From a virus, in UHGV virus genome UHGV-1370579: 64,000 nucleotides of DNA. One strand, 5' to 3'. How positions within the stretch are numbered: the stretch's first letter is position 1; each line of letters starts with the position of its first letter. Below are positions 29,765 to 48,450 of the stretch, in pieces. The notes beneath the pieces are model-generated. The model was not told the origin of the DNA and ran no database searches. It was given only the letters and a program-made list of their open reading frames with translations. Both the position numbers and the translations under genes were made by a program.

Positions 29765-29765
29765 T

Positions 29766-31590: not shown

Positions 31591-32484
31591 ATGTATAACT
31601 TTAAAGATAAACTAAGACAAAATGCTGGCAAAGGAAAGGCAAAGGAGAATAATAGTGTTCCTAATGCTAAAGTACTTCCGTTTCCTGAACTATCTCAAGA
31701 AGAAAAAGATAAGTTAGCATTTATGTTTGATGCCCTTCTAGGGCTAAATGGACGTTTATATTCCTCACTCAATATTAATGAGAAACGTCTAGTAGAGATG
31801 TTCTGTAAGCGTTATCAAGTTACTTCAAAGGGCAATTCCTACAAAGAAGGTGAAAAAGCATTCACAGTCTTAAAAATCAGTGCATATGCACATCGTTTCT
31901 TAGTTTATGGATTACAGATGGAATACTTCACCATTCCACCCTTTAAGTCATTTCACATTTTTGAAGATGAACGAATGAATATTGATGATCTCTATGGAGA
32001 TACGTACAAATATTCAGGAAGCCCATTCCACGATGCATTAAGGAGCTATCCAACTAACTATTTACCAGTTAGAGCATCTCAAGGTAAAGCTAGCATCTTT
32101 GCTGTATACTCAGGATCTAAAGCATCTGATCTAGAAACTTATATATTTAAAGAGCGTAAATCTGTACTTCCAGATGAAGCATTATATAATAATCCATTGC
32201 TTCCAGAAAAAGAACCAGAGAAAATTGATGTAACCCCACCAACCCCACCAATCCCATCTGATTCTCCGTACCTGAAGTTTGAAAACCATGTTGGATGGGT
32301 TCTAGAAATGGGTGTAGCTTCACCGCTTGCTGCAGCATTCATCAATAGGTATCTAGAAATTCCTGACGAGTTCCACACACGTTATAATACGAATATTCAG
32401 ATTACAGATGAATTAATAGCCATTGCAAAAGGTACACCTACTGACACTGAGGCGTACCAAAAAGCATACCAAGAGTTACTGTAA
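31591..32484 (+). CDS. hypothetical protein (297 aa), last gene of the AT-rich early block
   Basis: ORF with gggagataataATG; followed by hairpin 32495-32523. Confidence 0.55.
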   Translation: MYNFKDKLRQNAGKGKAKENNSVPNAKVLPFPELSQEEKDKLAFMFDALLGLNGRLYSSLNINEKRLVEMFCKRYQVTSKGNSYKEGEKAFTVLKISAYAHRFLVYGLQMEYFTIPPFKSFHIFEDERMNIDDLYGDTYKYSGSPFHDALRSYPTNYLPVRASQGKASIFAVYSGSKASDLETYIFKERKSVLPDEALYNNPLLPEKEPEKIDVTPPTPPIPSDSPYLKFENHVGWVLEMGVASPLAAAFINRYLEIPDEFHTRYNTNIQITDELIAIAKGTPTDTEAYQKAYQELL

Positions 32485-32916
32485 GATCCTGCATGTCTCG
32501 GTGCACAATACCTGTACCGAGACTCAAATACAAACTCTCGTTGACAGATAGCTAAATGTATGTTATCATAACTCTATGAGTTAATAGAATTAACCATTTA
32601 GAGTTGCCACACAGAAGGTGTGGTGGTTCAGTAATTTAAAATTACTAACTTGTAGCGGAGGATACGGAGCGACAGGACAAGTTAATAAGTAATTTAATAT
32701 AAATTGCTAGAAACATCACGAGACCTTCTGGCGGGGGCAAAGCTCTATATGAGAACCCTGGGGGATCTTATATTTAAAATAAAAGTAAAACTTTTGACCA
32801 CATAATTTACATTCAAGATGATACACCTGTTGCCGCTCATCTGCTAGGATGGCACAACACTTTCTTCTAGACTCCTAAGTTTCTATGAAAACTCTAGTCA
32901 ACTCAGGCGGTTTTCA

Positions 32917-32977
32917 TATTCCTAGAAACTCTAGCAATAGGCGGTTAATATAGGGCGGTTATAGGGAGGGCGGTTAT
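32917..32977 (+). repeat. 4 direct copies of GGCGGTT(A/T)
   Basis: copies at about 32917, 32940, 32955 and 32969. Confidence 0.7.
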
Positions 32978-33019
32978 TTCTAGGAGACATTTTTTGAAAA
33001 CACATTTCCAGAAATTACT

Positions 33020-33620
33020 GTCGGATTTGCACACTGACAGGAGTTTAAAAACTGGTCGGATTTGCACAAACGCCTAAGTTTTTAGGAACTCTTCCTCTCC
33101 TGAAAATAGCAGCATTATTTCGGGCCGAAGGCCCGTGATTGCCTGAGTTTTTAGAGCCACAAGAATTTTCACTTGTCAAGCTATTTTGCCCCATTTTGCT
33201 AATAAAATTTTACTTTTTCTGCACCTATCTCAAATTTCCCCAAATTATCTCAACTCTTCCCCAAAATCCCCGCAAATCAGGTGCTCCGCACCAATCCTGC
33301 GCCCACATCCTTCTAACCCCAAAATTTCTCTCGCTCTCTCATCTTCTCCTCAAACCTATACAATCACACACCCTCCAATCGAAGTCACAAAAATCTTGTC
33401 GGATTCGCACAAATAAACCCATGTCGGATTTGCACATATTCTAGCTAATTCCACAGGATTGATGCGCAGCATCGGATTGCTGGAGTTTTTAGGAAAATTC
33501 GTTGTCGGATTTGCACACTATAAAAATTTTTCGGGTCGGATTTGCACACTACCAAAAATTGTCGGATTCGCACATACATGCCCACGCGTAACCCATGGGG
33601 GCAAATGTCGGATTTGCACA
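33020..33620 (+). repeat. 8 direct copies of 14-mer GTCGGATT(T/C)GCACA (candidate iterons/protein-binding array)
   Basis: copies at about 33020, 33055, 33398, 33423, 33504, 33535, 33561 and 33607, all same orientation, irregular spacing. Confidence 0.8.
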
Positions 33621-33639
33621 AAAGCGCAGGGCAATTGCC

Positions 33640-33845
33640 CTGCTCGCCTGAATGCGAATGATAATGAGAATCAATCTCATTTAAAAAGTGAAATGCGAAT
33701 GATAATGATTTGCATTTAAGAAAGGGAATGAGAACTATTCAAGAAGTGAAATGAAAATTATTCAGGAAGTGAAACGATTCTCATTTAGAAAGTGGAACGC
33801 AAATGATAATGATTCGCATTTAAGAAGGGAAGTGAGAAACACTGT
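33640..33845 (+). repeat. AT-rich iteron block (AAGTGAAA x5; aatgcgaatgataatga x2 and variants)
   Basis: repeated gaagtgaaatg / gaatgcgaatgataatga units. Confidence 0.65.
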
Positions 33846-33846
33846 T

Positions 33847-33962
33847 ATTTAAGTTATCCACAGACTTATTAACAGCACGATTTGACTTGACAGAATCCTA
33901 GCCATTTTGAAGCGTTATCCACAGACTTATCCCCAGGTTATTCTACTGTATAAATATACAGT
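33847..33962 (+). repeat. left terminal inverted repeat of 4-kb cassette: 23-bp tip with DnaA box (TTATCCACA), second DnaA-box 17-mer, and near-palindrome actgtataaatatacagt
   Basis: the perfect 23-mer at 33847-33869 is the reverse complement of the 23-mer at 37851-37873; a 17-bp direct repeat of the DnaA-box motif recurs at 33914-33930; palindrome at 33945-33962. Confidence 0.8.
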
Positions 33963-34104
33963 ATTCCTATGTAGTGAATAATTCTAATATACGCCTAAAA
34001 CGTCCTGAATCGCATTCTAACGCGTTTAATTTTGGCGGGGATACTAAAACAAATGGGTATTTATCTGGGGGCGTGAAAAACGGGGATCTGCTCCCCGCTT
34101 GTTG

Positions 34105-34299
34105 TCAGTCCGGTAATTGATGCGTGATCTTCTCCTCCTCCCCGTAGGAATCGACCAAATGCTGATAATAACCATCGTGATCATAAATAACGCTATCATA
34201 TTCGCCCCGCTCGACCGCTTGCCGGTTTTCCGGCGTATCGGGCACGTAAAAAACATCAACCATCGTAGTAGTTTTGGTCACAACAATTTTATTGCTCAT
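34105..34299 (-). CDS. hypothetical acidic protein (64 aa)
   Basis: minus-strand ORF; internal ATG with aggag SD chosen as start. Confidence 0.45.
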   Translation of the reverse strand: MSNKIVVTKTTTMVDVFYVPDTPENRQAVERGEYDSVIYDHDGYYQHLVDSYGEEEKITHQLPD

Positions 34300-34529
34300 A
34301 ATAACTCCTAGTAAATATATTTTTGCCAATAGCGGCGAACGTTATCGCCACCAGCGGAATCATTTGTAGCCTCAACATTACCAACGAAAATATATAGTTT
34401 CATAGTGCCATCGCTCCTAGAATGAGAATGATTATTATTACCATTACAAGCCCGTTACTAAATCGTAAACGCTGGGAAACATTCCCAGCGGTATTATTAG
34501 ATTTATGGGATTGCGTTTTACGCCACCAG

Positions 34530-34730
34530 CTATTCACGGTAGACACGCCAGCCGTCTAGCTTCCATTCTTCCCCCTTGCGAATATTGAAAAACCAATCAT
34601 TAAAATTGTAACCATCTTCTGACATGATCACGCCGTTTTCTTTCATGTACAAAAATTCATCGCTAGTAAAATATTGATTACTAACTTTAAAACCTTGTTT
34701 CATTTTTTCTAGTGCTTCATCTTTAGTCAT
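34530..34730 (-). CDS. hypothetical protein (66 aa)
   Basis: minus-strand ORF, overlaps start of downstream gene by 4 nt. Confidence 0.45.
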   Translation of the reverse strand: MTKDEALEKMKQGFKVSNQYFTSDEFLYMKENGVIMSEDGYNFNDWFFNIRKGEEWKLDGWRVYRE

Positions 34731-35071
34731 TGCGCCACCTTTCGAAACGCTGTTTCAATACTTTCAGCGGTTGATTGAATATACGCGCCTTTCATGATCA
34801 GGCGCTCAGTGCATACCTTGCGGAAAATATTAATAAAATCATCTTCATTTTCTGCAATTAATGCCTCACCCATGACCTGAATATCACACGATGCAAAGGT
34901 CAAAAATTGAAACGCTAGTTCACGGGCAACGACCGCATTAATTTTATAATGCGCCTTGCCTTCATAGATATTAATTACGCCTATATAAACTGGTGAAAGC
35001 TGGTTTAAATAGTTTGCTAATAATGCCGGTCGGCAAATAGCAACAAAACGATTGCCCTCATAAATTACCAT
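34727..35071 (-). CDS. hypothetical protein (114 aa)
   Basis: minus-strand ORF in GC-richer cassette. Confidence 0.5.
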   Translation of the reverse strand: MVIYEGNRFVAICRPALLANYLNQLSPVYIGVINIYEGKAHYKINAVVARELAFQFLTFASCDIQVMGEALIAENEDDFINIFRKVCTERLIMKGAYIQSTAESIETAFRKVAQ

Positions 35072-35194
35072 TTGACAGCCTCCCGATCAGGTATCCAGAT
35101 AAAAGCATAAAAATCCCCAGTAAAAGGGGATCATTTTTAAATAAGGTGGCGGTAAAACCGCCAACCATTGCAAGGCTAATAATGATAACGCTTT

Positions 35195-35407
35195 TCATAG
35201 TACCCCACGAAACGCAGCGTAAAAGGTGGCAAAATGTTTAACCGTTTCAGCTATCACATTGCCGCGCTTATCAAATTTCTTTTCTGTAACACGAAAGGCA
35301 TTTTTGTTACGTGCTACATATTCAATTTTACAATCTTCACGCTCAAACGTGTTTACATCCACCAGCTTAAAGCCTTTCGAACGTGCAAGGGAAACGTTGC
35401 GGATCAT
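35195..35407 (-). CDS. hypothetical protein (70 aa)
   Basis: minus-strand ORF; start overlaps stop of upstream small membrane ORF (taaaATGa). Confidence 0.45.
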   Translation of the reverse strand: MIRNVSLARSKGFKLVDVNTFEREDCKIEYVARNKNAFRVTEKKFDKRGNVIAETVKHFATFYAAFRGVL

Positions 35408-35410
35408 TTT

Positions 35411-35560
35411 TATTCTCCTTTACCAGTCATGCAGCCCAGCAGATAAGAAAATGCGGCGATACCCGCGCCGATAATAACGGCGTGAACACCGAAAGCTATT
35501 GCAAACAACGATAAAATGGCGCCCAAGATACCAGCTAAAATAGCCCGAAAAATAACCATT
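35411..35560 (-). CDS. small hydrophobic membrane peptide (49 aa)
   Basis: MVIFRAILAGILGAILSLFAIAFGVHAVIIGAGIAAF; SD aggggagtagtacaaATG on minus strand. Confidence 0.35.
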
Positions 35561-35608
35561 TGTACTACTCCCCTAGTTAGTGGGGCGAAAGTAACGCCCC
35601 GTTATTAA

Positions 35609-35839
35609 TTACATTAAAACAATTTTAGCGGCTTGTTTTTTGGTGCAATGTTCCGCCTTCAGGGTATCCAGCAAAAAGCCAGCCGTTTGCTGATCAATCT
35701 TATCAGCGTTATACAATTCTTGGATGGTGTTATAAGTTTTAGCAATGCCATATTCTTGCACCATTTCGTGAATAATAACGCGGTTAGATACCCAGCCTTG
35801 AGCGGTGAACAGATGACTAGCAGAAGAATAAGCAACCAT
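35609..35839 (-). CDS. hypothetical protein (76 aa)
   Basis: minus-strand ORF. Confidence 0.45.
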   Translation of the reverse strand: MVAYSSASHLFTAQGWVSNRVIIHEMVQEYGIAKTYNTIQELYNADKIDQQTAGFLLDTLKAEHCTKKQAAKIVLM

Positions 35840-35943
35840 TTTAAGCCTCCAATTTTTTGGGAAATTTTCAATCCACCGTTTTGGTGTAAAAGCATTATAA
35901 CAAAAAAGGCCACCATAAAAGGCGACCTTTACAAAACTTTACA

Positions 35944-36438
35944 TTAGACTACTTGTAAGGATTCAATATTGAAACATCGTTTCAATTCGTCATGCAAAAC
36001 AGCGTATTCCTCCCATCGGGTACTATCAGGAATATAAACAAGCTGTTTTAATCGGTTTGCGTATATTACCGCTTTGTTACCAACTATCTCGACGCCACCA
36101 TATTTAATAATTAATTTCATGACGGAATTAATAGGATCGCCGCCGTTTACATATGTGCCGGATTTACTTAATTGATAATGATAAAGGCTTGCATATACAT
36201 TATCATTCTCATACCATTCGCCAGTATCTTCGTCTTCATAGCCATCGCTACCAAAACGAGAAGCATTATCAATAGCCCTTTCGTGAGCTAAAGCGTCCAG
36301 ATCCGTACCAGCAGGAACAAAATATTCCTCGGTATTCCCTTCCCCGCAGTAACCCGTATGACAATCAACCAAAATGATCATATCATGTTTAGCCGTGCTC
36401 ACTTCTCCCAGTGAGAAGCCATATTTTTCTTCTGACAT
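35944..36438 (-). CDS. hypothetical acidic protein (about 164 aa)
   Basis: minus-strand ORF, start MSEEKYGF with SD aggagg. Confidence 0.5.
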   Translation of the reverse strand: MSEEKYGFSLGEVSTAKHDMIILVDCHTGYCGEGNTEEYFVPAGTDLDALAHERAIDNASRFGSDGYEDEDTGEWYENDNVYASLYHYQLSKSGTYVNGGDPINSVMKLIIKYGGVEIVGNKAVIYANRLKQLVYIPDSTRWEEYAVLHDELKRCFNIESLQVV

Positions 36439-36504
36439 AATTAGCCTCCTATTAATTAACAAGGGAATAATAAAGCGGGGAAACAATCCCCGCTAAATTA
36501 GTTA

Positions 36505-37509
36505 TTACTCGCTTTCGGTGCTAGTGGTAAAAGTAGAAATATCAATACCTTTCACCATTTCATCAATCATTTCAGCGATATTAAAACTTTGTACCATTTC
36601 TAACATAGCCGCTTCCATAGCTGCACCTGCCACCGCTTTCGCCTTTTGGTTACTTGGGGCGTACTGGTCAACCGCTACGCTCAGCAGGTTGGCAATCACT
36701 ACTCGACCGATGGGTGTATCAATATAACCTTTAATCATAAACGGTGCTTTTTTAGCCGCTACTTTCGTAATTTGAGTCAGTGCAATTTTACCCGCTTCCA
36801 GTTTTGCAGCGTTTACAACAGCGGATTTATTAGCGGCAACAATATTAGCGATCTTGGTCATGGTGTTTTTTCCTTTATTTTCAGTAGTTTGCGCATTTGC
36901 GCTTGAAGTTTGAGATGGTACAGCCTGTTTTGCTACGTTGTCAACTGGTTTTAGTGTAAATCCAGCATTTGCAACATTTGTTTCACCCCCATACTCTAAA
37001 TAATCGTTAGGGATCAACATGTTACCCGTTGACTTTTCAAAACACAATACGCCAGTTGTTTCGATTGCGTTACTATCAGCACCTTTATAACTGGATGATA
37101 ATTCACGCCAGATACTATTTAATAACGATCCGACACTATCCAATCTGATATTATTTACTTTTGTTGCTGTTACCTGCTCTTTTTCTTGCACGTTATATAA
37201 TCGCGCAATGTAACCACTATGAGACTCACTATAACCAACAATGATAAAATCAATATCAGTCCCCCGACTATTACGGAAAATGTGATAATCACGGTTGAAA
37301 ATTACTAGCGCCCCTGTCTGGTCTAGTAATAGCGTGAAATCATCAACTGAATAATGAGTATCATTATTGTCTAAAATTTCATCGTGAATCTTTTCAATAA
37401 TAGTAGCAGTATGTTGTACACTTGCCGCACTACTACCATCTAGCAGGTTACGCAAACTACCTTTAACAATAGTGGCGTTTGCTGGTACTGCAATTCTTAC
37501 AGTAGACAT
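36505..37509 (-). CDS. hypothetical protein (334 aa), first gene of minus-strand cassette operon
   Basis: minus-strand ORF with SD gagggagacaaagaaATG; Ala/Lys-rich low-complexity C-terminal half. Confidence 0.55.
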   Translation of the reverse strand: MSTVRIAVPANATIVKGSLRNLLDGSSAASVQHTATIIEKIHDEILDNNDTHYSVDDFTLLLDQTGALVIFNRDYHIFRNSRGTDIDFIIVGYSESHSGYIARLYNVQEKEQVTATKVNNIRLDSVGSLLNSIWRELSSSYKGADSNAIETTGVLCFEKSTGNMLIPNDYLEYGGETNVANAGFTLKPVDNVAKQAVPSQTSSANAQTTENKGKNTMTKIANIVAANKSAVVNAAKLEAGKIALTQITKVAAKKAPFMIKGYIDTPIGRVVIANLLSVAVDQYAPSNQKAKAVAGAAMEAAMLEMVQSFNIAEMIDEMVKGIDISTFTTSTESE

Positions 37510-37706
37510 TTCTTTGTCTCCCTCGTTAATCGGTGAGTGAATGATATAGATAATTGTTCGCTAAGGGCAAGAAAAAAGAAAAGGTTTTTTATTCCTTGCC
37601 TTATGCTTGTTTTTATGATAACCGCGCGTTTCCTATTTCTAGCTCTCTGTAATCGTACACAAGGCTTTATTATAACAAGGGCAGCAGTGAGAAAACGCCG
37701 TGTAGC

Positions 37707-37723
37707 GCGTTTTAGGCCGCTTA
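37707..37723. repeat. 17-bp inverted repeat arm (GCGTTTTAGGCCGCTTA); partner at 38679-38695
   Basis: perfect reverse complement pair about 970 bp apart flanking the divergent promoter region and HNH gene. Confidence 0.7.
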
Positions 37724-37761
37724 AATTTGATTGCGGTTGTTACTGCTACCCTTCTACCCTG

Positions 37762-37873
37762 TATATTTATACAGTAGGATAACCTGTATATAAGTCTGTG
37801 TAAAAGTCGCCAAAACGTCGCCTATTGCGTCAAGTTATTTTACAAAATGTATAAGTCTGTGGATAACTTAAAT
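37762..37873 (+). repeat. right terminal inverted repeat of 4-kb cassette (palindrome ctgtatatttatacag; degenerate and perfect DnaA-box 23-mer)
   Basis: the 23-mer at 37851-37873 is the reverse complement of 33847-33869; the palindrome at 37763-37778 is the reverse complement of the left copy. Confidence 0.8.
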
Positions 37874-38056
37874 GATAGTGGTTCTCACTAACTAATTTAT
37901 ACAGTTATTATATAACAAAATATAGTTAGTTGGCTAATAGGATTTTAAAGTGATTATGAGTCTGCTAATTAAACCTGAAAAACTCATTAGCTAGCCTGCT
38001 ATTAATTTTGTTATAATATAATAGAGATTAAACTAATAACATAAGGAAACAATTAA

Positions 38057-38575
38057 ATGCCTAAGTATAAAGATATAGATTATGACCTTTTTAATAGTTA
38101 CTTTTATTATGATGAAACGTCGTTATCGTTTTTACGTTGGCGAGAAGATCACGCCATCGCAGGTGGTTTAAATGGTAATTATTGGCAAGTTGAACTATTA
38201 GACATGGGACAATTCAAAGTACATAGAATTATCTTTTGTATAATGAATGGCGGTATAGATAGCGAGCTAATGATTGACCATATTGATCGTAACACTCGTA
38301 ATAATAACATCTGGAATCTTCGCGCGGTTGATAGTTCGCAGAATAATTATAATCGCACTCCTAGTGAGTATGAAAATTGTAAGCGTGCTAATGGTATCCC
38401 TAAAAACATTTACGTTAATAAAGTTCGCCCCCGTGATAGTTACGGGCGTGACTATTTGACTGCTCAAATTAAGAATCCTATTACTAACAAGCGTGTTAGT
38501 AAGTCTGGTTATGATTTACAAGAGTTATTATTATGGCTTGAAATTAAAAAAGCTGAATTTGGAATTGTCAATTAA
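38057..38575 (+). CDS. HNH_3 + AP2-domain homing endonuclease
   Basis: YYDETSLSFLRWRED...IDHIDRNTRNNNIWNLRAV (HNH_3) and YENCKRANGIPKNIYVNKVRPRDSYGRDYLTAQI (AP2-like); AT-rich relative to surroundings. Confidence 0.75.
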   Translation: MPKYKDIDYDLFNSYFYYDETSLSFLRWREDHAIAGGLNGNYWQVELLDMGQFKVHRIIFCIMNGGIDSELMIDHIDRNTRNNNIWNLRAVDSSQNNYNRTPSEYENCKRANGIPKNIYVNKVRPRDSYGRDYLTAQIKNPITNKRVSKSGYDLQELLLWLEIKKAEFGIVN

Positions 38576-38678
38576 TTTATTTACTAAATTAACTCATTTA
38601 GTCTTGATTTTAAAAAGTCAATGCCTTTTACAACTATTTTTCAATTTTGCTTTTGTTAAACATTTGTTAAATCGAAAA

Positions 38679-38695
38679 TAAGCGGCCTAAAACGC
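38679..38695. repeat. 17-bp inverted repeat arm (TAAGCGGCCTAAAACGC); partner at 37707-37723
   Basis: see partner. Confidence 0.7.
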
Positions 38696-39021
38696 CCTAG
38701 AACGCAATAAAGTTTTTAGCCATCCCATCATAAGGGGATAAGCCGTTTATCGCTGCCACGAGCTTTTTAGATTTTGTCAAGTAGGGGAAAGCAAATATAA
38801 ATGAAAAAATTACTTGCCTATTTGCTTTGTTTTGTGGTATTCGCGCGCCCGTTTCTTTTAATTTTAGGCCGTCACCGCACGCCGTCCGGTGAATTTTGTC
38901 TTTACGTTTCTTTACAAAAATAAGGTTGCGCCATTTTCGGGAATCCCCTATTATTTATCACGTAGGGCGGCAATGACGAACTACACGGCGGGAAGTTTAC
39001 CGCCACGCTCTTTAAAAATTG

Positions 39022-39045
39022 GGTACATCTTAAAGCCTATCGGCG
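39022..39045. repeat. 24-bp perfect inverted repeat arm (GGGTACATCTTAAAGCCTATCGGC); partner at 39288-39311
   Basis: perfect reverse-complement pair bracketing the 67-aa gene at 39077-39280. Confidence 0.8.
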
Positions 39046-39076
39046 GTAAACTTATCTATTATAAGGAATCGACGAT

Positions 39077-39280
39077 ATGAAACAAACTTTATTGATCACT
39101 GGCAAGCCTAGCAAGGCACTGGATAGCGAAACTAAAAAATTGTTGACAATAGCTCAACAATCCGTAAAATACCGATTTGCGCAGTACAAGAAAGGCCGCC
39201 AGCAAGGTTTAGAAATGATCTGGCGCAATATTATGATTGACCTGAAAGAAAATCATAAAAAACTGCAAAAAACTGTTTGA
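39077..39280 (+). CDS. small basic hypothetical protein (67 aa) bracketed by 24-bp inverted repeats
   Basis: ORF with aaggaatcgacgatATG; IR arms 31 bp upstream of the start and 8 bp downstream of the stop. Confidence 0.5.
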   Translation: MKQTLLITGKPSKALDSETKKLLTIAQQSVKYRFAQYKKGRQQGLEMIWRNIMIDLKENHKKLQKTV

Positions 39281-39287
39281 CACCCTA

Positions 39288-39311
39288 GCCGATAGGCTTT
39301 AAGATGTACCC
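39288..39311. repeat. 24-bp perfect inverted repeat arm; partner at 39022-39045
   Basis: see partner. Confidence 0.8.
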
Positions 39312-39512
39312 AGTTCGATGAGAGCGATAACTTGATAAAATTTGACGGTCGGCACTTACCATAATGTGCCCCGCCCCCTAACTGGGATATAGCGGCCTGC
39401 AAGGAGTTCTTTAAATTGATTATAATGGCGAGCGGATTGTTACTTATTACCTGCTATTACTTTTCTAGCAGGTAATGCGGAACAATCCCCTAAATAACTT
39501 GGAGTTTATACT

Positions 39513-39764
39513 ATGAAAAACGTTATTACCGCGCCTAAAATTGGTCAATCCGTTTTCATCCCTTTCGTTACTAAAACGGACGAATTAACCGGAAAAGCCG
39601 AACGTATTAAAGGTGCGGCGCTTATGCCGTTCGATACAATCGACGCGGTATACGCTGAAAATGAACGCAGTAACAACGGCAAGCCCGTTTTTAGCGTTCG
39701 CGTTAAATCCGGCGATGTTGTAAAGGTTGTTCAACGCAACGAAAAATGGGAAGCTGTTTTATAA
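39513..39764 (+). CDS. hypothetical protein (83 aa)
   Basis: ORF with cttggagtttatactATG; followed by hairpin tatatccctc...gggggatata. Confidence 0.5.
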   Translation: MKNVITAPKIGQSVFIPFVTKTDELTGKAERIKGAALMPFDTIDAVYAENERSNNGKPVFSVRVKSGDVVKVVQRNEKWEAVL

Positions 39765-39862
39765 TTTAGTGCTAACTTTATATCCCTCTTATTTCAGGGG
39801 GATATAACGATTAACATTAAGTTAATCTAATCCCTTAAATTAAACTAATAGGAGTTTTTACC

Positions 39863-40270
39863 ATGACTAACGCAAAAACCGCAAAATTCGCATGGAATGA
39901 AGAAAACACTCAGAAAGCTGTTACCATGTACCAGCAGTTAATCAACGAAAACGGTTTAGATTTTGCAAATAGCGACGGCCTGAAAGAGATTGCAAAAGCA
40001 GTAGGCGCGGCCTCCCCCGTATCCGTTCGCTCAAAATTGACCAGTGCAAAAGCCTATCAGAAAAGCGATAAGCCGCGTAAAGTTGGCGGCGGCAGTTCCA
40101 TTCGTAAAGCGCATTATGTGCGTGTTATTGCAAAACATGCGATCGATTCCGGCATTATCAAAGACGCCGATGATCTGGCAAGTCTGGAAAGTGCAAAATT
40201 GGAAACGCTGGACGCCGTGGCGCAACTGTTAGGCGTTGCCGATGAAGTAAAACAAGCCGCAGGTGAATAA
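39863..40270 (+). CDS. A2: A2-like pre-early protein (135 aa)
   Basis: 135 aa equals the recalled size of T5 A2; lies immediately upstream of the A1-like 556-aa gene; conserved pre-early upstream motif aatcccttaaat..ggagtttt. Confidence 0.5.
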   Translation: MTNAKTAKFAWNEENTQKAVTMYQQLINENGLDFANSDGLKEIAKAVGAASPVSVRSKLTSAKAYQKSDKPRKVGGGSSIRKAHYVRVIAKHAIDSGIIKDADDLASLESAKLETLDAVAQLLGVADEVKQAAGE

Positions 40271-40359
40271 TAGTTATATCTTGCCCCTTCTAGCGAGGGG
40301 GCAATAATATAACTGTTTAGCGATAGCTATTTTCTTCCCTTAAATCAGGAGTTTTATAA

Positions 40360-40557
40360 ATGATTTTCTTTCCTACTGAATCTTTAATTCTAGGCTTATT
40401 TATTATGGCGGCCTCATTATTGTTTGCTTATTTTCAAAATGATTTAGATTCATATTATTTTAAACGTAAATCTAAATTAGCAAAGCGTTTGGGCTTACTT
40501 TGTTTTATTGCCGCCGTTGCTTGTGGTGTTAGTTCTAGCCTAGTGCCTTTAAATTAA
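40360..40557 (+). CDS. small membrane protein (65 aa)
   Basis: two TM helices; conserved pre-early upstream motif. Confidence 0.45.
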   Translation: MIFFPTESLILGLFIMAASLLFAYFQNDLDSYYFKRKSKLAKRLGLLCFIAAVACGVSSSLVPLN

Positions 40558-40647
40558 TGTTGCAAATTATAACGCCTATTATTTGAGGCGTTATATTTGG
40601 CAATATTGCCGTTATTAACCTAATCCCTTTAATGGAGTTTTATTACT

Positions 40648-42318
40648 ATGATTATTTCCGCAGAAAAACAAACCGTTATCCTGAAAATGGCCGCTGACTT
40701 TAACTTCTACGGTAAACGCCTGCGCGCCACTAAATTGGAAGTTTGTGACGATATTTCGAAAGCGGTATACGATACTACTAAACACTCCACCGCCATTTGT
40801 GATTGGTTGGAAGCAAATAAACCAGCGAAACCAAAAGCGGCAAAAGTAGCAAAAGCCATTAAAAATGATGAGCGCCCAGAAGCGGCTGGGATTGTTTCTA
40901 GTACGGTGGAGCAATGGGAAGTAAAACAAGGTAAACGCTTTATTATTACATCGATTCAGAATAATACTTTCCCGCATAAAAACTTTTTAGCCTCACTGGA
41001 GCAATTTGCTAAATATATCGGTGCTGATTTGCTTGTTTCTAAGTATATTTATAATAAAAACGGTTTTCAAAATGGGGAAGGTGCGGATGGAATCAAATAT
41101 GATTCCGCGTTCGATAAATATATTTGCAGCAAAAACGTGTTTTTAAATAACCGCCGCTTTGCTTTCATGGCTGAAATTAATGTTTTGCCAACCGCAGATT
41201 ATCCGCTTTCTGGATTCGCCGAGACTGCAACGGCTTTAAATATTGAGGGGCTGGCAATTGGTCACGCTAAAATTACCGCTGAAAGCGTGCCAGCTTTAAA
41301 AGGTGAAGTAGTGCGCCGTATGTATTCAACCGGAACGGCAACGTTAAAAAACTACATTCAGCAGAAAGCAGGACAAAAGGCCGAGGCGCTGCATAACTTC
41401 GGTGCGCTGATTGTCGAGTTCGACGAGGACGGGGAATTTTTTGTTCGCCAGCTTGAAACAATGGACGAAAGCGGGGTGTTTTATGATCTGAACGTTTGCG
41501 CTACTCCTGCCGGATGCTATGAGACATCGGGGCATGTTTTAGGCTTGCAGTATGGCGATATTCACGCCGAAAAATTAGATGAGGAGTGCGCCGCCGCATC
41601 TTGGGGGCATGGTGATACTTATGGGCTAGTAGATATTCTTAAACCAAAATATCAGTTTGTGCATGACGTTCACGATTTTACATCCCGCAATCATCATAAC
41701 CGCGCATCCGGTGTATTCCTAGCTAAACAATACGCCGCCGGACGTGATAAAGTTCTGGATGATCTTATCGATACGGGGCGCGTGCTAGAATCAATGGAAC
41801 GTGATTTTAGTCAAACAATCATTGTTGAATCTAATCACGATTTGGCGCTATCCCGTTGGCTTGATGATCGTAATGCTAACATCAAAGACGATCCAGCAAA
41901 CGCCGAGTTATATCACCGCCTGAATGCCGCTATTTACGGAGCTATTGCAGAAAAAGACGATACTTTCAACGTGCTAGATTATGCGCTGCGCAAGGTTGCA
42001 GGCTGTGAATTTAACGCCATTTTCCTGACCACTGACCAATCTTTCAAGATTGCAGGCATCGAGTGCGGCGTACACGGTCACAACGGCATTAACGGGAGCC
42101 GTGGCAATCCGAAACAGTTTAAGAAATTGGGCAAATTAAACACCGGACACACCCACACCGCCAGCATTTACGGCGGCGTTTATACCGCTGGCGTATCGGG
42201 GAGCCTCGATATGGGTTACAATGTTGGCGCGTCAAGCTGGACGCAAACGCATGTTATTACCTATGCAAACGGTCAGCGTACTTTGATCGACTTTAAGAAC
42301 GGTAAATTCTTTGCGTAA
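40648..42318 (+). CDS. A1: A1-like pre-early protein with metallophosphatase motifs (556 aa)
   Basis: 556 aa equals the recalled size of T5 A1; GDIHAE, GHGDTYG, GVHGHNGINGSRGN and GHTHT phosphoesterase-like motifs in the C-terminal half. Confidence 0.6.
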   Translation: MIISAEKQTVILKMAADFNFYGKRLRATKLEVCDDISKAVYDTTKHSTAICDWLEANKPAKPKAAKVAKAIKNDERPEAAGIVSSTVEQWEVKQGKRFIITSIQNNTFPHKNFLASLEQFAKYIGADLLVSKYIYNKNGFQNGEGADGIKYDSAFDKYICSKNVFLNNRRFAFMAEINVLPTADYPLSGFAETATALNIEGLAIGHAKITAESVPALKGEVVRRMYSTGTATLKNYIQQKAGQKAEALHNFGALIVEFDEDGEFFVRQLETMDESGVFYDLNVCATPAGCYETSGHVLGLQYGDIHAEKLDEECAAASWGHGDTYGLVDILKPKYQFVHDVHDFTSRNHHNRASGVFLAKQYAAGRDKVLDDLIDTGRVLESMERDFSQTIIVESNHDLALSRWLDDRNANIKDDPANAELYHRLNAAIYGAIAEKDDTFNVLDYALRKVAGCEFNAIFLTTDQSFKIAGIECGVHGHNGINGSRGNPKQFKKLGKLNTGHTHTASIYGGVYTAGVSGSLDMGYNVGASSWTQTHVITYANGQRTLIDFKNGKFFA

Positions 42319-42371
42319 TTAATTAATACCCTAGCGGCTTGAAATATAGCCGCTATTACAGGAGTCAAAAA

Positions 42372-42629
42372 ATGAAAGTTACATTACCCAAAACATTGGA
42401 CGAAAAAGTATTCATTTCACCGGATGAAATGGAATCTGATAAAGTTTACAGCTTCGGGCCTATCCTAGCCGCCAAAACTAATACGGATGGTATTATTTCC
42501 GTCGATTCCCGTGATAACGATATTGTCCCTTTTGATGATGATGGCGCTTTTTATGAGTGGCTAAGCGATAATAATTTACCCGTAAATGGTGAATTAACGC
42601 CGTATCAAATGCAAATTATTATCAAGTAA
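42372..42629 (+). CDS. hypothetical protein (about 85 aa)
   Basis: ATG with caggagtcaaaaaATG after hairpin. Confidence 0.45.
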   Translation: MKVTLPKTLDEKVFISPDEMESDKVYSFGPILAAKTNTDGIISVDSRDNDIVPFDDDGAFYEWLSDNNLPVNGELTPYQMQIIIK

Positions 42630-42667
42630 ATTAAACCCCTTATTAAACTAATTGGAGTTTTATAAAT

Positions 42668-43066
42668 ATGAAAAAGCAAAATATTCCATTCGATCGCGCT
42701 CAATCCTCAATTGTTTTAGTTTATTCTAATGGTGAGCGTTATCACGTCGAGGCCGGTCACGTTGTCGATGATTTAATCGAGTTTAACGAGGCGCTACAGA
42801 TCACTACTTTCGCCTATACCACGGGCAAGCTATCAAGCCGCATCAAGGCGAAAGGCGTTTACATTGACACGGTGAAACAAGAAACGATTATCATCGACGC
42901 CGTAAAATCCGGCCTAGCCTTTGCGGTAGTCGCGCCTTGCCCCGCTTGCCTTGATGATCAGCTAATGAGCGCAAAGGTGTATACCTGCGCTGGTATTCGT
43001 TCCAGTGTATCGGGTGAAGATATTACCGTCATCGCTGATGCGCTTGCGTTTGGTCTGGCATTTTAA
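42668..43066 (+). CDS. hypothetical protein (132 aa)
   Basis: conserved pre-early upstream motif ttggagttttataaatATG. Confidence 0.5.
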   Translation: MKKQNIPFDRAQSSIVLVYSNGERYHVEAGHVVDDLIEFNEALQITTFAYTTGKLSSRIKAKGVYIDTVKQETIIIDAVKSGLAFAVVAPCPACLDDQLMSAKVYTCAGIRSSVSGEDITVIADALAFGLAF

Positions 43067-43146
43067 TAGTTAATTTATTATTACCCGCTATTAAATAGCG
43101 GGTAATGCTGAACTAACTTAATCCCTCAAATGGAGAATGCAACAAA

Positions 43147-43881
43147 ATGAATAAATCTATTACTAATTCTTTCCGTACTTTCCCGCATATTTCCCGCGTC
43201 ATGATTTGGGATCTGGACGGCACTATCATTAATTCTTTCCATCGTGTAGCGCCTTGCTTTGATAGTGAGGGCAATTTAGATTTAAATAAGTATAAGAATG
43301 AAGCGTGTAAACATCATTTAATAATGCAGGATTCATTATTACCATTAGTTGAATATATGCGCCAGTGCATGAATGATGTTAATACGTTAAACATTATCTG
43401 CACCGCTCGACTGATGAGCAAGTCGGATTATTATTACCTACGCAAGCAAGGACTGCGAGGGCGTGGGGATAGCAATATCCGCGTATTTTCCCGCGATACA
43501 CTACACAAATATTTTGAAGCTGATAAAGTTAGCGAAATATACCACAGTAAGGACGCAGTTTATAAATCTTATTATTTTGAATTATTTAAACAGTTATATC
43601 CGAACGCTGATTTTACAATGATTGACGATCATAAAGGCGTGCTATCAGCGGCTGCGTCATACGGATTTAAAACGCTGGACGCGCAAGCTATTAACGATAT
43701 TCTATCAATCGGTGTCACATTGATAGGTGAAACCTTTATTGATGAGTCGCTCGATGATGATAATGATTATCAATTCCTAGCCGACCGCCTGCAATTATGT
43801 TGGGAAAGTATGACCGAAGAAGAACGCGCAGAATATAGTTGCAGCCCGCAACAATATATTGAGAAATTAAAAGTTGCCTAA
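43147..43881 (+). CDS. dmp: HAD-family 5'-deoxyribonucleotidase (Dmp-like, 244 aa)
   Basis: MIWDLDGTIINSF HAD motif I; 244 aa equals the recalled size of T5 Dmp; position at the outer end of the pre-early block. Confidence 0.65.
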   Translation: MNKSITNSFRTFPHISRVMIWDLDGTIINSFHRVAPCFDSEGNLDLNKYKNEACKHHLIMQDSLLPLVEYMRQCMNDVNTLNIICTARLMSKSDYYYLRKQGLRGRGDSNIRVFSRDTLHKYFEADKVSEIYHSKDAVYKSYYFELFKQLYPNADFTMIDDHKGVLSAAASYGFKTLDAQAINDILSIGVTLIGETFIDESLDDDNDYQFLADRLQLCWESMTEEERAEYSCSPQQYIEKLKVA

Positions 43882-44052
43882 CAATTAAGATTGAGATTGT
43901 TTCACCTTGCAATTAAAATGGTTGCAGGGTGAAACAGTTAGCATGGTAATAGTAACACAGGGGGATTATTAGACTACTAACTATCCCCAGTCCCACTGAG
44001 CACATCCGCATGTGTAATCTTATGAAATTTCAAGATTTTCAAATTAGCGCTA

Positions 44053-44526
44053 TTAACCGTGGTTTGTGAACTCACCACATACTTTCTCACGTGCTTCCCT
44101 TATCGCACTTTCAGCTTCCTCAAGACTCTCGAAATAGGCCGAGATAAAATACTTACCTTGGTGTCTACCGCGTGCTCTCCACTTCTTACGAGTGTTATCC
44201 CAGTATACTCCCTTAACTCCCGAGATATTGTTCTTAGATAGACGCTGATTCGCTAAGTTCTGCTCATGTGATGCTTTACGAAGATTATTCTTTCTATTAT
44301 CTAGTCCCTCACAGTTTTTATGGTCTATGAGAGATTCTCCGGGATCTTCTCCGTAGATGCACCACCAAGCTAGGCGATGCACTCTAAACTCTCCGAACTG
44401 TGGGTGACGATATATGAGATAACCTTCACTTTCCTTAGTATACCCTATAATAGGCAGGAATCGCCCCGTATCTGGATCATATGAAAAACTACCAGCTATT
44501 TCATCAGGGATTTTCTTAAATATCAT
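44053..44526 (-). CDS. HNH_3 + AP2-domain homing endonuclease
   Basis: SFSYDPDTGRF...HRLAWW...IDHKN..DNRKNNLR (HNH_3); GVYWDNTRKKWRARGRHQGKYFISAYFESLEEAESAIREA (AP2). Confidence 0.75.
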   Translation of the reverse strand: MIFKKIPDEIAGSFSYDPDTGRFLPIIGYTKESEGYLIYRHPQFGEFRVHRLAWWCIYGEDPGESLIDHKNCEGLDNRKNNLRKASHEQNLANQRLSKNNISGVKGVYWDNTRKKWRARGRHQGKYFISAYFESLEEAESAIREAREKVCGEFTNHG

Positions 44527-44768
44527 GAACTTCTCCTATCTACTGGCTTATCTCCCGATTCTGACATACGAAATCTCTTCCGCGACGCCCGAGATCCATC
44601 AGACCATTCTCGCTCAAACTCCGCACGTTTCTCCGCAAACCTCCGCTCTCTTTCCGAAAGCTCTCGCGATACCCCCGCAATATATTCACGATGTTTGTTA
44701 ATAGCCCCGAGTGTTCCGAAGATTCCCGCAAGTACCCCGATAATGAAGATAGCTACAAAACTAAACAT
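44523..44768 (-). CDS. small hypothetical protein with N-terminal TM segment (81 aa)
   Basis: minus-strand ORF overlapping neighbours by 4 nt. Confidence 0.4.
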   Translation of the reverse strand: MFSFVAIFIIGVLAGIFGTLGAINKHREYIAGVSRELSERERRFAEKRAEFEREWSDGSRASRKRFRMSESGDKPVDRRSS

Positions 44769-44956
44769 TACTTGTCTCCCCGCAGCTTACGTTCTATACG
44801 AGCTAAGTGGTTATCTAAGATGCACTGCCCTATAATTACCACAACTAGTAAAGCAATAATTACTACTTCCATTATAACCACCCCGCCATAGCTGCTAACC
44901 AAAAGAGTACAAAGATAAAGAATAACACAGTCCCGAATCCGAAAGAATTTATCCAA
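44768..44956 (-). CDS. small hypothetical membrane protein (62 aa)
   Basis: minus-strand ORF. Confidence 0.35.
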   Translation of the reverse strand: MDKFFRIRDCVILYLCTLLVSSYGGVVIMEVVIIALLVVVIIGQCILDNHLARIERKLRGDK

Positions 44957-44987
44957 CTTTCATATACTTCCCCTCTTTTATTTTTAC

Positions 44988-45569
44988 TCATTTATTTAAC
45001 TCCTCCACACTAAAAACTTTGTATCCCTTAAATAACTCCTGAACTGCACGTGGTCCATGAAACTGTACACGCATCGTATTAGCCTTCTCCACCGCTAACT
45101 TTAGATCTTGGTAGGGAAAGAATCCTCCAGATATTTGATTACCTTTACTATCTTGTACTCTAACTTGCCATTTTTGTTTTAATTTATTCCAGGATACTCC
45201 TAGGTAACCAGATATACCCCAAGAAGGTCTATTACGCATATTTTCCTGCCTAGATGCATCAAATAGATTATCCCACCTATTATCATCTCTAACTCTATTA
45301 TCATGGTCCACTTCTACGGGCATATATCCTTCCATGTATAAGAAGGCCAGTCTATGCGCTCTATAAGGTAGTCTGTCAATACGAATTACTATATAGCCAT
45401 CTTTATCTCGTGTACCTGCTATACTACCTGCTTTTTTGTTTCCTCTACTTTGTAAATTTACAAATATACCGGTATTCGGGTCGTACCTTAGCACTTCTTT
45501 TAATCTTTCTTGCGTTAGCACGCTGCTTCTCCTGTAAGCCTGGTATTTGGAAGATTCTAGATATTGCAC
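44988..45569 (-). CDS. HNH_3 + AP2-domain homing endonuclease (possible GTG start at 45521)
   Basis: LTQERLKEVLRYDPNTGIF...HRLAFL...VDHDNRVRDDNRWDNL (HNH_3); GYLGVSWNKLKQKWQVRV (AP2). Confidence 0.75.
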   Translation of the reverse strand: MQYLESSKYQAYRRSSVLTQERLKEVLRYDPNTGIFVNLQSRGNKKAGSIAGTRDKDGYIVIRIDRLPYRAHRLAFLYMEGYMPVEVDHDNRVRDDNRWDNLFDASRQENMRNRPSWGISGYLGVSWNKLKQKWQVRVQDSKGNQISGGFFPYQDLKLAVEKANTMRVQFHGPRAVQELFKGYKVFSVEELNK

Positions 45570-45847
45570 GAACCATTATGACTGTCCCGATAAGATCCAT
45601 TACTTCATCGAAGCCGGATTCTTCTATTAAGAAGGATGTTCCCATCACTTCTTCTATTGTATCTTCTATGACGTCTTGAATGATTTCATCAATTGCATCA
45701 TGTATTGCTTTTTAGTCCTGGGATCTATTTCAAAGTTAACAGGTTCCTGAAAGGACTTTTCTTCATCTTACCTAGTGGTTTCTGCCAATATACCATCCAA
45801 GAAATAAAAAATTTAGTTTACTTGGATGTCTTTTTGTTTTATACTAA

Positions 45848-46114
45848 TTACAGGTAATTAGATTGCTCTAGTTTAAATTTACAATCACCATATTTAAGGT
45901 CAAACTGACTGAGATCCCACCACCCAAATTTAGTACGGAGCTGTACTACTGGAAAGCGATCTCCCTTAATACGAACTTTTTGAACCTTGAGACCGTAATG
46001 TTCTTCCCCCGCACCACCAAAAGATTTTACAAATCCCGTACAAAATGGTTTGGGAGCAGGTGCACAACCAGATAACATAACTGTGGCAACTAGTGCAATT
46101 ACAAACTTTTTCAT
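45848..46114 (-). CDS. llp: Llp-like lipoprotein (receptor-blocking superinfection-exclusion lipoprotein)
   Basis: MKKFVIALVATVMLSGC lipobox; small; divergently adjacent to the receptor-binding protein gene as in T5 (llp/oad). Confidence 0.7.
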   Translation of the reverse strand: MKKFVIALVATVMLSGCAPAPKPFCTGFVKSFGGAGEEHYGLKVQKVRIKGDRFPVVQLRTKFGWWDLSQFDLKYGDCKFKLEQSNYL

Positions 46115-47957: not shown

Positions 47958-47967
47958 AGGAGGAAAT

Positions 47968-48450
47968 ATGGCAAATGATGTATTAGTACCAGATCTTATG
48001 TCCCCTGAAGGGATGGATGTAATTGAAGCTTATTTACAGTGTGGCAGCGATGTGCCTGCCGCAGCACGTAGTCTTGGAATGTCTGAAATTGCTTTCCGAG
48101 ATATTATGAATCGTAGTGAAGTTAAGAACTACTTAAATGATATTTTTATGGAGAGTGGATTCCGTAACAGAGATCGTTTATTTGGTGTTCTAGATGAAGT
48201 TATTAAACGTAAACTAGAGGAGCTAGAAGAAACTGGCATGGGTTCTGACCAGGATATTATGGATATTCTATGGAAAGCTCACAAAATGAAGATGGAAGAA
48301 ATGAAGATGATGGTAGAGTTAGAGAAAGCTAAAGCCGCCGCTCGAGCTCCTGCTAATCAGACCAATATTCAGAATAACATTATTGCTGGAGCTGGGGACC
48401 AAAACTACATGGACTTAATTACTTCCCTAGCTACTGGAGGTAAGAAGTAA
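47968..48450 (+). CDS. terminase small subunit (HTH-containing)
   Basis: 160 aa, [18 protein letters not shown]; directly upstream of and overlapping terminase large subunit. Confidence 0.6.

What the first reader, a model, noticed from the sequence alone, without database searches (positions are those of the whole stretch)
32485..45850. T5 terminal-repeat-type pre-early module (A2-A1-dmp) sits between the early tRNA region and the late structural genes on the same strand; the window probably spans a collapsed direct terminal repeat
Gene sizes and order (135 aa, then 556 aa with phosphoesterase motifs, then 244 aa HAD dNMPase) match the T5 pre-early genes A2, A1 and dmp, which in T5 lie in the about 10-kb direct terminal repeat. 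The block is followed by llp (-), pb5-like and terminase, as at the right end of T5. The block has clearly higher GC, and different codon choices (gcg/gcc/ccg/ttg), compared with both flanks. In a linear T5-type genome, early and late modules are not contiguous. The simplest explanation is an assembly in which the two terminal repeats are collapsed into one internal copy. In that case the physical genome ends would lie near 32.5 kb and near 45.7 kb.
Basis: partly seen in the sequence, partly recalled or inferred. Interest (0 to 1): 0.65.

Follow-up and report, generated by a model that had tools for sequence, protein, structure and literature searches.

The report
Collapsed T5-type terminal repeat in assembly
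The window comes from a T5-like phage whose roughly 10.8-kb terminal repeat, which carries the pre-early genes dmp, A1 and A2, appears once in the middle of the sequence because the two end copies were merged during assembly; this is a common and well-known representation, not new biology.

Summary
A2 (39863-40270), A1 (40648-42318) and dmp (43147-43881) are 99%, 97% and 94% identical in protein to T5 A2, A1 and Dmp. Every other gene of the T5 left terminal repeat except T5.003 follows in T5 order.

One copy of the repeat is flanked on the left by sequence that in T5 and BF23 adjoins the left repeat. On the right it is flanked by sequence that adjoins the right repeat. That is the topology of a collapsed direct terminal repeat, or equally of a concatemer or replicative-circle junction.

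Homology to T5, BF23 (ends determined with PhageTerm) and vB_EcoD-Elw puts the repeat at about 33154-44002 (10,849 bp), not 32.5 and 45.7 kb. The stretch 44003-45847 is unique right-end DNA with T5.159/160/162 homologs and two HNH homing endonucleases.

"Clearly higher GC" is weak: 39.9% against 39.0% for the window. The codon difference is real for the + strand pre-early genes, and T5 shows it too.

At most 79 of 459 database records show a second match to A1, as a record holding both repeat copies would, so this layout is routine. Read coverage could not be tested. The finding is already known and of low interest.

The parts
31591..32484 (+). Homolog of T5.018, the last gene of the unique early region next to the left terminal repeat
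   Evidence: 90.9% aa identity to T5.018 over 294 aa
32485..33153 (.). Non-coding unique DNA just outside the inner end of the repeat. It holds two GTCGGATTTGCACA repeats (33020, 33055) and a GGGCCGAAGGCCC hairpin (33121-33133).
   Evidence: Aligns with T5 10220-10935 and BF23 9744-10085, both beyond the annotated left repeats. Repeats.
33154..44002 (.). Predicted direct terminal repeat, single collapsed copy, 10,849 bp. It is the first-step-transfer DNA. The physical ends are predicted at 33153|33154 and at 44001/44002|44003.
   Evidence: The T5 right end (121750, equivalent to 10219), the BF23 TR end (9743) and the Elw TR end (9935) all align to window 33154. T5 position 1 and right-repeat start 111532, and BF23 position 1 and 104801, align to window 44002 or 44001. 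Kenya-K37 and Kenya-K20 annotations differ by about 30 bp.
33398..33625 (.). Six more copies of the GTCGGATTTGCACA direct repeat (the T5 'direct repeat D' type) in the injection-stop-signal region
   Evidence: the repeat finder family D1. T5 annotation of DRD copies and the iss.
33624..33631 (.). Conserved motif of the T5 major single-strand nick (GCGCAGGG, which is CCCTGCGC on the other strand) next to the palindrome 33626-33643
   Evidence: Alignment with AY587007 9661-9668, 'major single-stranded nick 1, 7.9%'
33831..33961 (.). Inverted-repeat arm (T5 IRD'-spacer-IRC' type) with two consensus DnaA boxes (33854, 33915)
   Evidence: Davison bioRxiv 10.1101/866236.
34108..37509 (-). Divergently transcribed pre-early genes:
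- T5.017 homolog: 34108-34299
- T5.015 homolog: 34727-35071
- T5.014 homolog: 35195-35407
- T5.013 homolog: 35413-35559
- T5.012 homolog: 35609-35839
- 180-aa ORF: 35944-36486, no match among the T5 repeat proteins
- T5.011 homolog (DUF7566): 36505-37509
   Evidence: tblastn identities of 58-100%. Pfam DUF7566, E 9e-137. PHROGs 4227, 4379, 6741 and 4263. DNA spanning the 180-aa ORF aligns with the K37, Elw and BF23 repeats, which annotate a 164-aa CDS after their T5.011 homolog.
37759..37889 (.). Partner inverted-repeat arm (IRC-spacer-IRD type) with DnaA boxes at 37797 and 37858
   Evidence: Four of the window's five TTWTNCACA matches lie in the two arms.
38057..38575 (+). HegG-like HNH homing endonuclease inside the repeat
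   Evidence: Pfam HNH_3, E 3e-12. 56% aa identity to T5 HegG. This stretch does not align to the K37, Elw or BF23 repeats.
38973..39764 (+). Small pre-early ORFs: homologs of T5.009 (38973-39077), T5.008 (39077-39280) and T5.007 (39513-39764)
   Evidence: 88-97% aa identity. Near-consensus sigma-70-like sites at 39143 and 39277.
39863..40270 (+). A2, a DNA-binding protein required for second-step transfer
   Evidence: 99.3% aa identity to T5 A2. phrog_1725, E 1e-51.
40360..40557 (+). Homolog of the T5.005 membrane protein
   Evidence: 95.4% aa identity. phrog_4820.
40648..42318 (+). A1, the DNA transfer and host-DNA-degradation protein, a putative metallophosphatase
   Evidence: 97.3% aa identity to T5 A1. 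phrog_1745, E 1e-244. Motifs. Function from bioRxiv 10.64898/2026.04.02.716235.
42339..43066 (+). A 96-aa ORF in the position of T5.003 (no T5 protein match; the K37/Elw-type allele) and the T5.002 homolog (42668-43066)
43147..43881 (+). dmp, a deoxynucleoside-5'-monophosphatase (HAD-type DLDGT motif). It ends 121 bp before the predicted terminus, as in T5 (123 bp).
   Evidence: 94.3% aa identity to T5 Dmp..
44003..45847 (-). Unique right-end region, not part of the repeat:
- HNH+AP2 endonuclease: 44053-44526
- T5.162 homolog: 44523-44768
- T5.160 and T5.159 homologs: 44783-44985
- Second HNH endonuclease: 44988-45569
   Evidence: Window 44003-44050 aligns with T5 111484-111531, which is before the right repeat. 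T5.162, T5.160 and T5.159 matches. Pfam HNH_3 and AP2. In Kenya-K20 the same HNH lies outside the annotated DTR.
45848..46114 (-). llp, a receptor-blocking lipoprotein of the BF23 type
   Evidence: 98.9% aa identity to the BF23 receptor-blocking protein. No match to T5 Llp. phrog_1119, Cor-like.
46200..49766 (+). Start of the late module: receptor-binding protein (46200-47957), TerS (47968-48450) and TerL (48450-49766)
   Evidence: The receptor-binding protein is 67% identical to BF23 Oad and 30% to T5 pb5. TerS is 98% and TerL 99.8% identical to T5.

Best explanation

Positions about 33154-44002 are the phage's long direct terminal repeat, the first-step-transfer DNA. In the virion this roughly 10.8-kb segment should sit at both ends of a linear genome. 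Here it appears once. It joins the tRNA-side end of the early region to the llp / receptor-binding / terminase end of the late region. The likely reason is that the assembler merged the two identical copies and produced a circularly permuted contig.

The same junction also exists in replicative circles and concatemers.

How the module works is inferred from T5 literature, not shown here.
- The end at about 44002 enters the cell first.
- Injection pauses at the repeat- and DnaA-box-rich stop signal (about 33.2-34.1 kb).
- Host sigma-70 RNA polymerase transcribes the pre-early genes.
- A1, a putative metallophosphatase nuclease, destroys host DNA, and Dmp dephosphorylates the released dNMPs.
For: - A2, A1 and Dmp are 99%, 97% and 94% identical to T5. 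All T5 repeat genes from T5.001 to T5.017 except T5.003 (T5.016 only as a 19-residue fragment) have colinear counterparts. PHROG hits agree.
- DNA left of 33154 aligns only with T5 10220-13000 and BF23 9744-10085, inside the left repeat junction. DNA right of 44002 aligns only with T5 111484-111531, the T5.162/160/159 region and the BF23 equivalent, before the right repeat.
- Three boundary annotations map to the same window positions within 1 nt: the annotated T5 repeats, BF23 (PhageTerm; PMC10644984) and Elw.
- The injection-stop-signal anatomy is conserved. There are 8 GTCGGATTTGCACA repeats, a 131-bp inverted-repeat pair holding 4 of the window's 5 consensus DnaA boxes, and the major nick motif.
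- 459 phage records contain A1 but give only 538 matching places. Many records carry the block internally, for example fp01, phiAPCEc03 and mar004NP2.
- Davison (bioRxiv 10.1101/866236, section 2.3) attributes misplacement of dmp, A1 and A2 in deposited T5-like genomes to assembler trouble with the large repeats. He also cites electron-microscopy evidence for replicative circles of genome length minus one repeat.
Against: - No reads are available, so the 2x coverage and read-start pile-ups that would prove a collapse were not seen.
- The roughly 45 bp just inside the outer terminus differ from T5 and BF23, so the exact cut could be a few bases off.
- Kenya-K37 and Kenya-K20 annotations place both boundaries about 30 bp away.
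- Only 64 kb of the record is visible, so a second copy elsewhere in the record cannot be formally excluded.
Confidence: 0.9

Rival explanations
1. The arrangement is the true packaged order. This phage would be a T5 relative whose pre-early module is internal and whose physical ends or repeats lie elsewhere.
For: It cannot be excluded without reads. The 45 bp inside the outer boundary diverge from T5 and BF23, and an HNH endonuclease sits 50 bp outside that boundary.
Against: - Both junction sequences are conserved with phages whose ends were determined.
- Two-step injection needs the pre-early genes and the stop signal at the leading end.
- The same internal layout is seen in many deposited records of ordinary T5-like phages.
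- Kenya-K20 carries the same HNH and still has its DTR starting beside dmp.
Confidence: 0.03
2. The sequence reflects real intracellular DNA, either a replicative circle or a concatemer junction, or a deliberate one-copy deposit by the authors. In that case it is not an unnoticed assembler error.
For: Replicative circles of genome length minus one repeat have been seen by electron microscopy (Davison). [quoted passage not shown]
Against: At the sequence level this cannot be told apart from a collapse. Phage genomes are normally sequenced from virion DNA. A deliberate one-copy deposit would usually start at the terminus, whereas here the repeat is internal.
Confidence: 0.06
3. The block is a horizontally acquired island, as the higher GC and unusual codon choice might suggest.
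For: A2, A1 and the T5.002 homolog have GC of 45-47% and GC3 of 0.43-0.48, against 0.24-0.33 in flanking genes.
Against: - T5 itself shows the same bias in the same genes: GC3 0.40 against 0.31, CGC 49% against 8%, and AGA+AGG 4% against 42%.
- The block as a whole is only 1 GC point above the window mean.
- The genes are the conserved core of the family.
Confidence: 0.01

Closest known systems
Bacteriophage T5 left/right terminal repeat (first-step-transfer region; NC_005859 1-10219, AY587007 1-10139)
   Same: - Same gene set, order and relative orientation: dmp, T5.002, A1, T5.005, A2, T5.007-009, hegG, then the divergent T5.011-017.
- Same injection-stop-signal repeats, DnaA-box inverted repeats and nick motif.
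- Same junction sequences at both boundaries.
   Different: - The repeat is present once and internally, instead of twice at the ends.
- It is 10,849 bp against 10,219 bp in T5.
- It has an extra 180-aa ORF (35944-36486) and a different allele at the T5.003 position.
- T5.016 is truncated by a deletion of about 197 bp.
- HegG is only 56% identical.
Phage BF23 (OR083247; 9,743-bp repeats determined with PhageTerm)
   Same: - Its repeat boundaries map to the same window positions.
- Its repeat DNA aligns across the 180-aa ORF, at its annotated 164-aa CDS BF23_00011.
- The Llp-type receptor-blocking protein is 98.9% identical.
   Different: - The hegG stretch of the window does not align to the BF23 repeat, and BF23 annotates no HNH endonuclease next to the right repeat junction.
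- The receptor-binding protein is only 67% identical.
Deposited T5-like genomes with a single, internal repeat copy (for example fp01 MH745368, phiAPCEc03 KR422353, vB_Eco_mar004NP2 LR027384)
   Same: Records of about 104-110 kb (103.7-109.5 kb) carry the A2-A1-dmp block in the middle, flanked by early genes on one side and llp, the receptor-binding protein and terminase on the other.
   Different: None in kind. The nearest records are 84-92% identical over 71-83% of the block, so this is a different mosaic isolate.

Membership tests
T5-type long direct terminal repeat / first-step-transfer region (Markadamsvirinae) | Pre-early genes dmp, A1 and A2 in conserved order and orientation | tested here: met
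   94%, 97% and 99% aa identity to T5, colinear. PHROGs 415, 1745 and 1725.
T5-type long direct terminal repeat / first-step-transfer region (Markadamsvirinae) | Large untranslated injection-stop-signal region with direct repeats, a 131-bp inverted-repeat pair carrying DnaA boxes, and the major nick site | tested here: met
   Compared with the T5 annotation and with Davison.
T5-type long direct terminal repeat / first-step-transfer region (Markadamsvirinae) | Boundaries coincide with the annotated genome termini of relatives | tested here: met
   T5, BF23 and Elw boundaries map to 33153|33154 and 44001-44002|44003. The Kenya phage annotations are within about 30 bp.
T5-type long direct terminal repeat / first-step-transfer region (Markadamsvirinae) | The segment is present as two identical copies at both ends of the virion DNA | not testable with these tools
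   Only one copy is in the window. There are no reads and no virion DNA data.
Collapsed terminal repeat in a circularly permuted assembly | A single repeat copy is flanked by the unique sequences that adjoin the left repeat on one side and the right repeat on the other | tested here: met
   Left flank matches T5 10220 onward and BF23 9744 onward. Right flank matches T5 up to 111531 and BF23 up to 104800.
Collapsed terminal repeat in a circularly permuted assembly | About 2x read depth over the repeat with sharp edges and read-start pile-ups | not testable with these tools
   No read data.
Calcineurin-like metallophosphoesterase (A1) | Ordered DxH ... D ... NH(D/E) ... H ... GHxH motifs, or a profile match | tested here: inconclusive
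   The motifs GDIH, HDVHD, SNHD and GHTH are present in order, but there is no Pfam hit at E<=0.01. The literature calls A1 a 'putative metallo-phosphatase'.
HAD-superfamily phosphatase (Dmp) | N-terminal DxDxT motif or a profile match | tested here: inconclusive
   DLDGT at residue 22. No Pfam hit. phrog_415, E 4e-55. 94% identical to T5 Dmp, annotated as deoxynucleoside-5'-monophosphatase in NC_005859.

The most novel reading that the evidence does not exclude
The internal position of the pre-early module could be the true packaged order in this phage. It would then be a T5 relative whose termini have moved, possibly linked to the homing endonuclease 50 bp from the ancestral cut site, and it would have to start infection differently from T5.

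A more modest reading is more likely. The host-like codon usage of the first-step-transfer genes may be an adaptation to being translated before the phage's own tRNA genes enter the cell.
Probability: 0.03. Interest if true: 0.6.

Novelty: already known. Interest (0 to 1): 0.1.

Why it matters
The practical value is for annotation.
- The record should be re-oriented to start at about 44002 (reverse strand), and the 10.8-kb repeat should be duplicated. The true genome would then be about 10.8 kb longer than the deposited sequence.
- The HNH endonucleases and small membrane-protein genes at 44.0-45.85 kb should not be counted as pre-early genes.

It adds nothing new about T5 biology.

The one mildly interesting by-product is the sharp, family-wide codon contrast between the first-step-transfer genes and the rest of the genome. 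That contrast fits the fact that the phage tRNA genes arrive only with the second-step DNA.

Tried and rejected
- **Pfam scans.** A2, A1, Dmp and the T5.002 homolog gave no hits at E<=0.01. Identification therefore rests on direct comparison with T5 and on PHROGs.
- **Search for the source record.** The best match over 32000-46500 was only 89.7% identical at 79% coverage, so no annotation of this exact genome was available.
- **GC as evidence of foreign origin or as a boundary marker.** Rejected. The repeat is 39.9% GC against 39.0% for the window, and 18% of equal-sized windows are as high. T5 shows the same pattern.
- **DnaA boxes.** TTWTNCACA is not enriched window-wide (5 found, 8.1 expected). 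Only the clustering of 4 of the 5 in the two inverted-repeat arms is meaningful.
- **Promoter scan.** The sigma-70-like scan of the block was not above shuffled expectation (49 against 42.5 +/- 6.6), so no promoter claims rest on it.
- **Kenya-K37 and Kenya-K20 DTR annotations.** They disagree with T5, BF23 and Elw by about 30 bp at both ends. I treated this as imprecision in those annotations.
- **Literature on pre-early codon usage.** One failed call and one search, with one of its hits read, found no statement about pre-early-specific codon usage. That does not show it is unpublished.
Full report
**What is there**

The window has 25 tRNA genes on the + strand at 2.9-15.3 kb. ORFs of exactly 135, 556 and 244 aa lie at 39863-40270, 40648-42318 and 43147-43881.

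A megablast of 32000-46500 hits 503 phage records. Nearly all are T5-like Salmonella, Escherichia and Klebsiella phages annotated with A1, A2, dmp and a receptor-binding protein.

Direct comparison with the T5 reference NC_005859 gives these protein identities:

| Protein | Identity to T5 |
|---|---|
| A2 | 99.3% |
| A1 | 97.3% |
| Dmp | 94.3% |
| TerS | 98% |
| TerL | 99.8% |

Every T5 left-repeat gene except T5.003 has a colinear counterpart between 34108 and 43881, although T5.016 survives only as a 19-residue fragment. PHROG profiles agree.

A1 carries an ordered metallophosphatase-like motif set, and Dmp has a HAD DxDxT motif. This matches the current description of A1 as a putative metallo-phosphatase that is necessary and sufficient for host DNA degradation (bioRxiv 10.64898/2026.04.02.716235). 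[quoted passage not shown]

**Topology**

In T5 the repeat is 1-10219 and 111532-121750. Blastn of window 30-48 kb against both T5 ends gave three results.
- Window 30411-34108 aligns continuously with T5 13000-9264, running through the inner end of the left repeat.
- The alignment to the T5 right end stops at window 33154, because the T5 record ends there.
- Window 42620-44050 aligns with T5 112911-111484, running through the start of the right repeat into the unique DNA before it.

A single repeat copy is therefore flanked by the left-repeat-side unique sequence on one side and the right-repeat-side unique sequence on the other. BF23 gives the same picture. This is what a collapsed terminal repeat in a circularised assembly looks like. 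It is equally what a concatemer or replicative-circle junction looks like.

**Where the ends are**

Multiple alignments of the two junctions agree across three phages.

| Phage | Inner boundary maps to | Outer terminus maps to |
|---|---|---|
| T5 (annotated repeats, NC_005859) | 33153\|33154 | 44002\|44003 |
| BF23 (9,743-bp repeats by PhageTerm; PMC10644984) | 33153\|33154 | 44001\|44002 |
| vB_EcoD-Elw (annotated repeats) | 33153\|33154 | within a base of T5 |

- The Kenya-K37 and Kenya-K20 annotations sit about 30 bp away at each end.
- The predicted repeat is 33154-44002, or 10,849 bp.
- dmp ends 121 bp from the terminus, compared with 123 bp in T5, 122 in BF23 and 109 in Elw.
- 32485-33153 is unique non-coding DNA.
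- 44003-45847 is unique right-end DNA. It holds homologs of T5.162, T5.160 and T5.159 plus two HNH homing endonucleases that are inserted relative to T5.
- In Kenya-K20 the same first HNH gene lies outside the annotated DTR.

**Anatomy of the non-coding part**

The region 33.2-34.1 kb matches the T5 injection stop signal.
- There are eight GTCGGATTTGCACA repeats. Six lie inside the boundary and two outside, as with T5 direct repeat D copies 7-9.
- There are AATGCGAATGATAATGA-type repeats.
- A 131-bp inverted-repeat pair lies at 33831-33961 and 37759-37889. It carries 4 of the window's 5 consensus DnaA boxes.
- The T5 major-nick motif is conserved at 33624-33631.

Davison describes this conserved structure in 25 T5-like phages (bioRxiv 10.1101/866236).

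**GC and codons**

The repeat is 39.9% GC against 39.0% for the window, and 18% of equal-sized windows reach that value. "Clearly higher GC" is therefore not supported.

The codon observation is supported for the + strand pre-early genes.

| Measure | Pre-early + strand genes | Flanking genes |
|---|---|---|
| GC3 | 0.41 | 0.33 / 0.275 (chi-square 73) |
| CGC share of Arg codons | 56% | 8-10% |
| AGA+AGG share of Arg codons | 2% | 32-39% |
| GGC share of Gly codons | 37% | 11-14% |
| GCC+GCG share of Ala codons | 51% | about 20% |

T5 shows the same contrast, so it is a family trait. It is not evidence of foreign origin or of misassembly.

My inference is that first-step-transfer genes are translated before the phage tRNA genes, which lie in second-step DNA, enter the cell. 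They would therefore use host-preferred codons. From my own knowledge, E. coli favours CGC/CGT, GGC and GCG and avoids AGA/AGG. One literature search, with one of its hits read, did not turn up this point.

**How ordinary it is**

Of the 459 phage records that contain A1, at most 79 show a second match, as a record holding both repeat copies would (459 records, 538 places). Many place the block internally.

Davison states that some deposited T5-like sequences have dmp, A1 and A2 "in the late region" because assembly software has difficulty with the large terminal repeats. He also notes electron-microscopy evidence for replicative circles of genome length minus one repeat.

**Mechanism (from the literature, not shown here)**
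- The end at about 44002 enters the cell first.
- Injection halts at the stop signal.
- Host RNA polymerase expresses the pre-early genes.
- A1 degrades host DNA and Dmp dephosphorylates the released dNMPs.
- A1 and A2 permit second-step transfer.

**Verdict**

The boundaries and the GC argument are wrong. The phenomenon is already known and routine. The collapse itself remains an inference from topology and homology, because no reads were available.

Noticed in passing
window 39077-43881 compared with 16000-32500 and 46000-64000; T5 loci L002 and L003: The + strand pre-early genes use host-like codons (CGC, GGC and GCG/GCC, with almost no AGA or AGG). Early and late genes use AGA, GGA, GCT and CCT. 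T5 shows the same pattern. A plausible reason is that the phage tRNA genes, including tRNA-Arg(TCT) at 3511, arrive only with second-step DNA.
   Followed up: partly
window 44053-44526 (-): An HNH+AP2 homing endonuclease gene sits only 50 bp outside the predicted repeat boundary and terminase cut site. It is absent from T5 and BF23 and present in 24 records at 80% coverage or more. In Kenya-K20 it lies outside the annotated DTR.
   Followed up: partly
window 45848-47957: The receptor module is of the BF23 type, not the T5 type. Llp is 98.9% identical to the BF23 receptor-blocking protein. The receptor-binding protein is 67% identical to BF23 Oad and 30% to T5 pb5, and 97-98.5% identical to those of phiLLS, T5_ev219 and IrisVonRoten. 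This suggests a BtuB-type receptor rather than FhuA, but that was not tested.
   Followed up: partly
window 37703-37732 and 38670-38699: A 30-nt inverted repeat (87% complementary) brackets one DnaA-box repeat arm and the hegG-like HNH gene. The right arm coincides with the point (38685) where the alignment to hegG-less relatives (K37, Elw, BF23) resumes. It may mark the edge of the endonuclease cassette.
   Followed up: no
window 34296-34410 and 34109-34308: Compared with T5, about 197 bp (T5 8748-8944) are missing. This removes most of the T5.016 homolog, of which only its first 19 codons match.
   Followed up: no
window 35944-36486 (-) and 42339-42629 (+): Two repeat genes differ from T5. 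The first is a 180-aa ORF (phrog_6741) that matches no T5 repeat protein, although the K37, Elw and BF23 repeat DNA aligns across it. The second is a 96-aa ORF at the T5.003 position with no T5 protein similarity, where only the K37 and Elw DNA aligns. Together with hegG these make this repeat about 0.6-1.1 kb longer than those of its relatives.
   Followed up: partly
window 33137-33154 and 43990-44002: Both predicted cut sites lie next to a CTGAG motif (GCCTGAGTTTTTA|GAGCC and CCACTGAGCA|C, with the BF23-type cut one base earlier). BF23 shares it at both ends, but T5 has GTGGAC at the outer end. This may well be coincidence.
   Followed up: no
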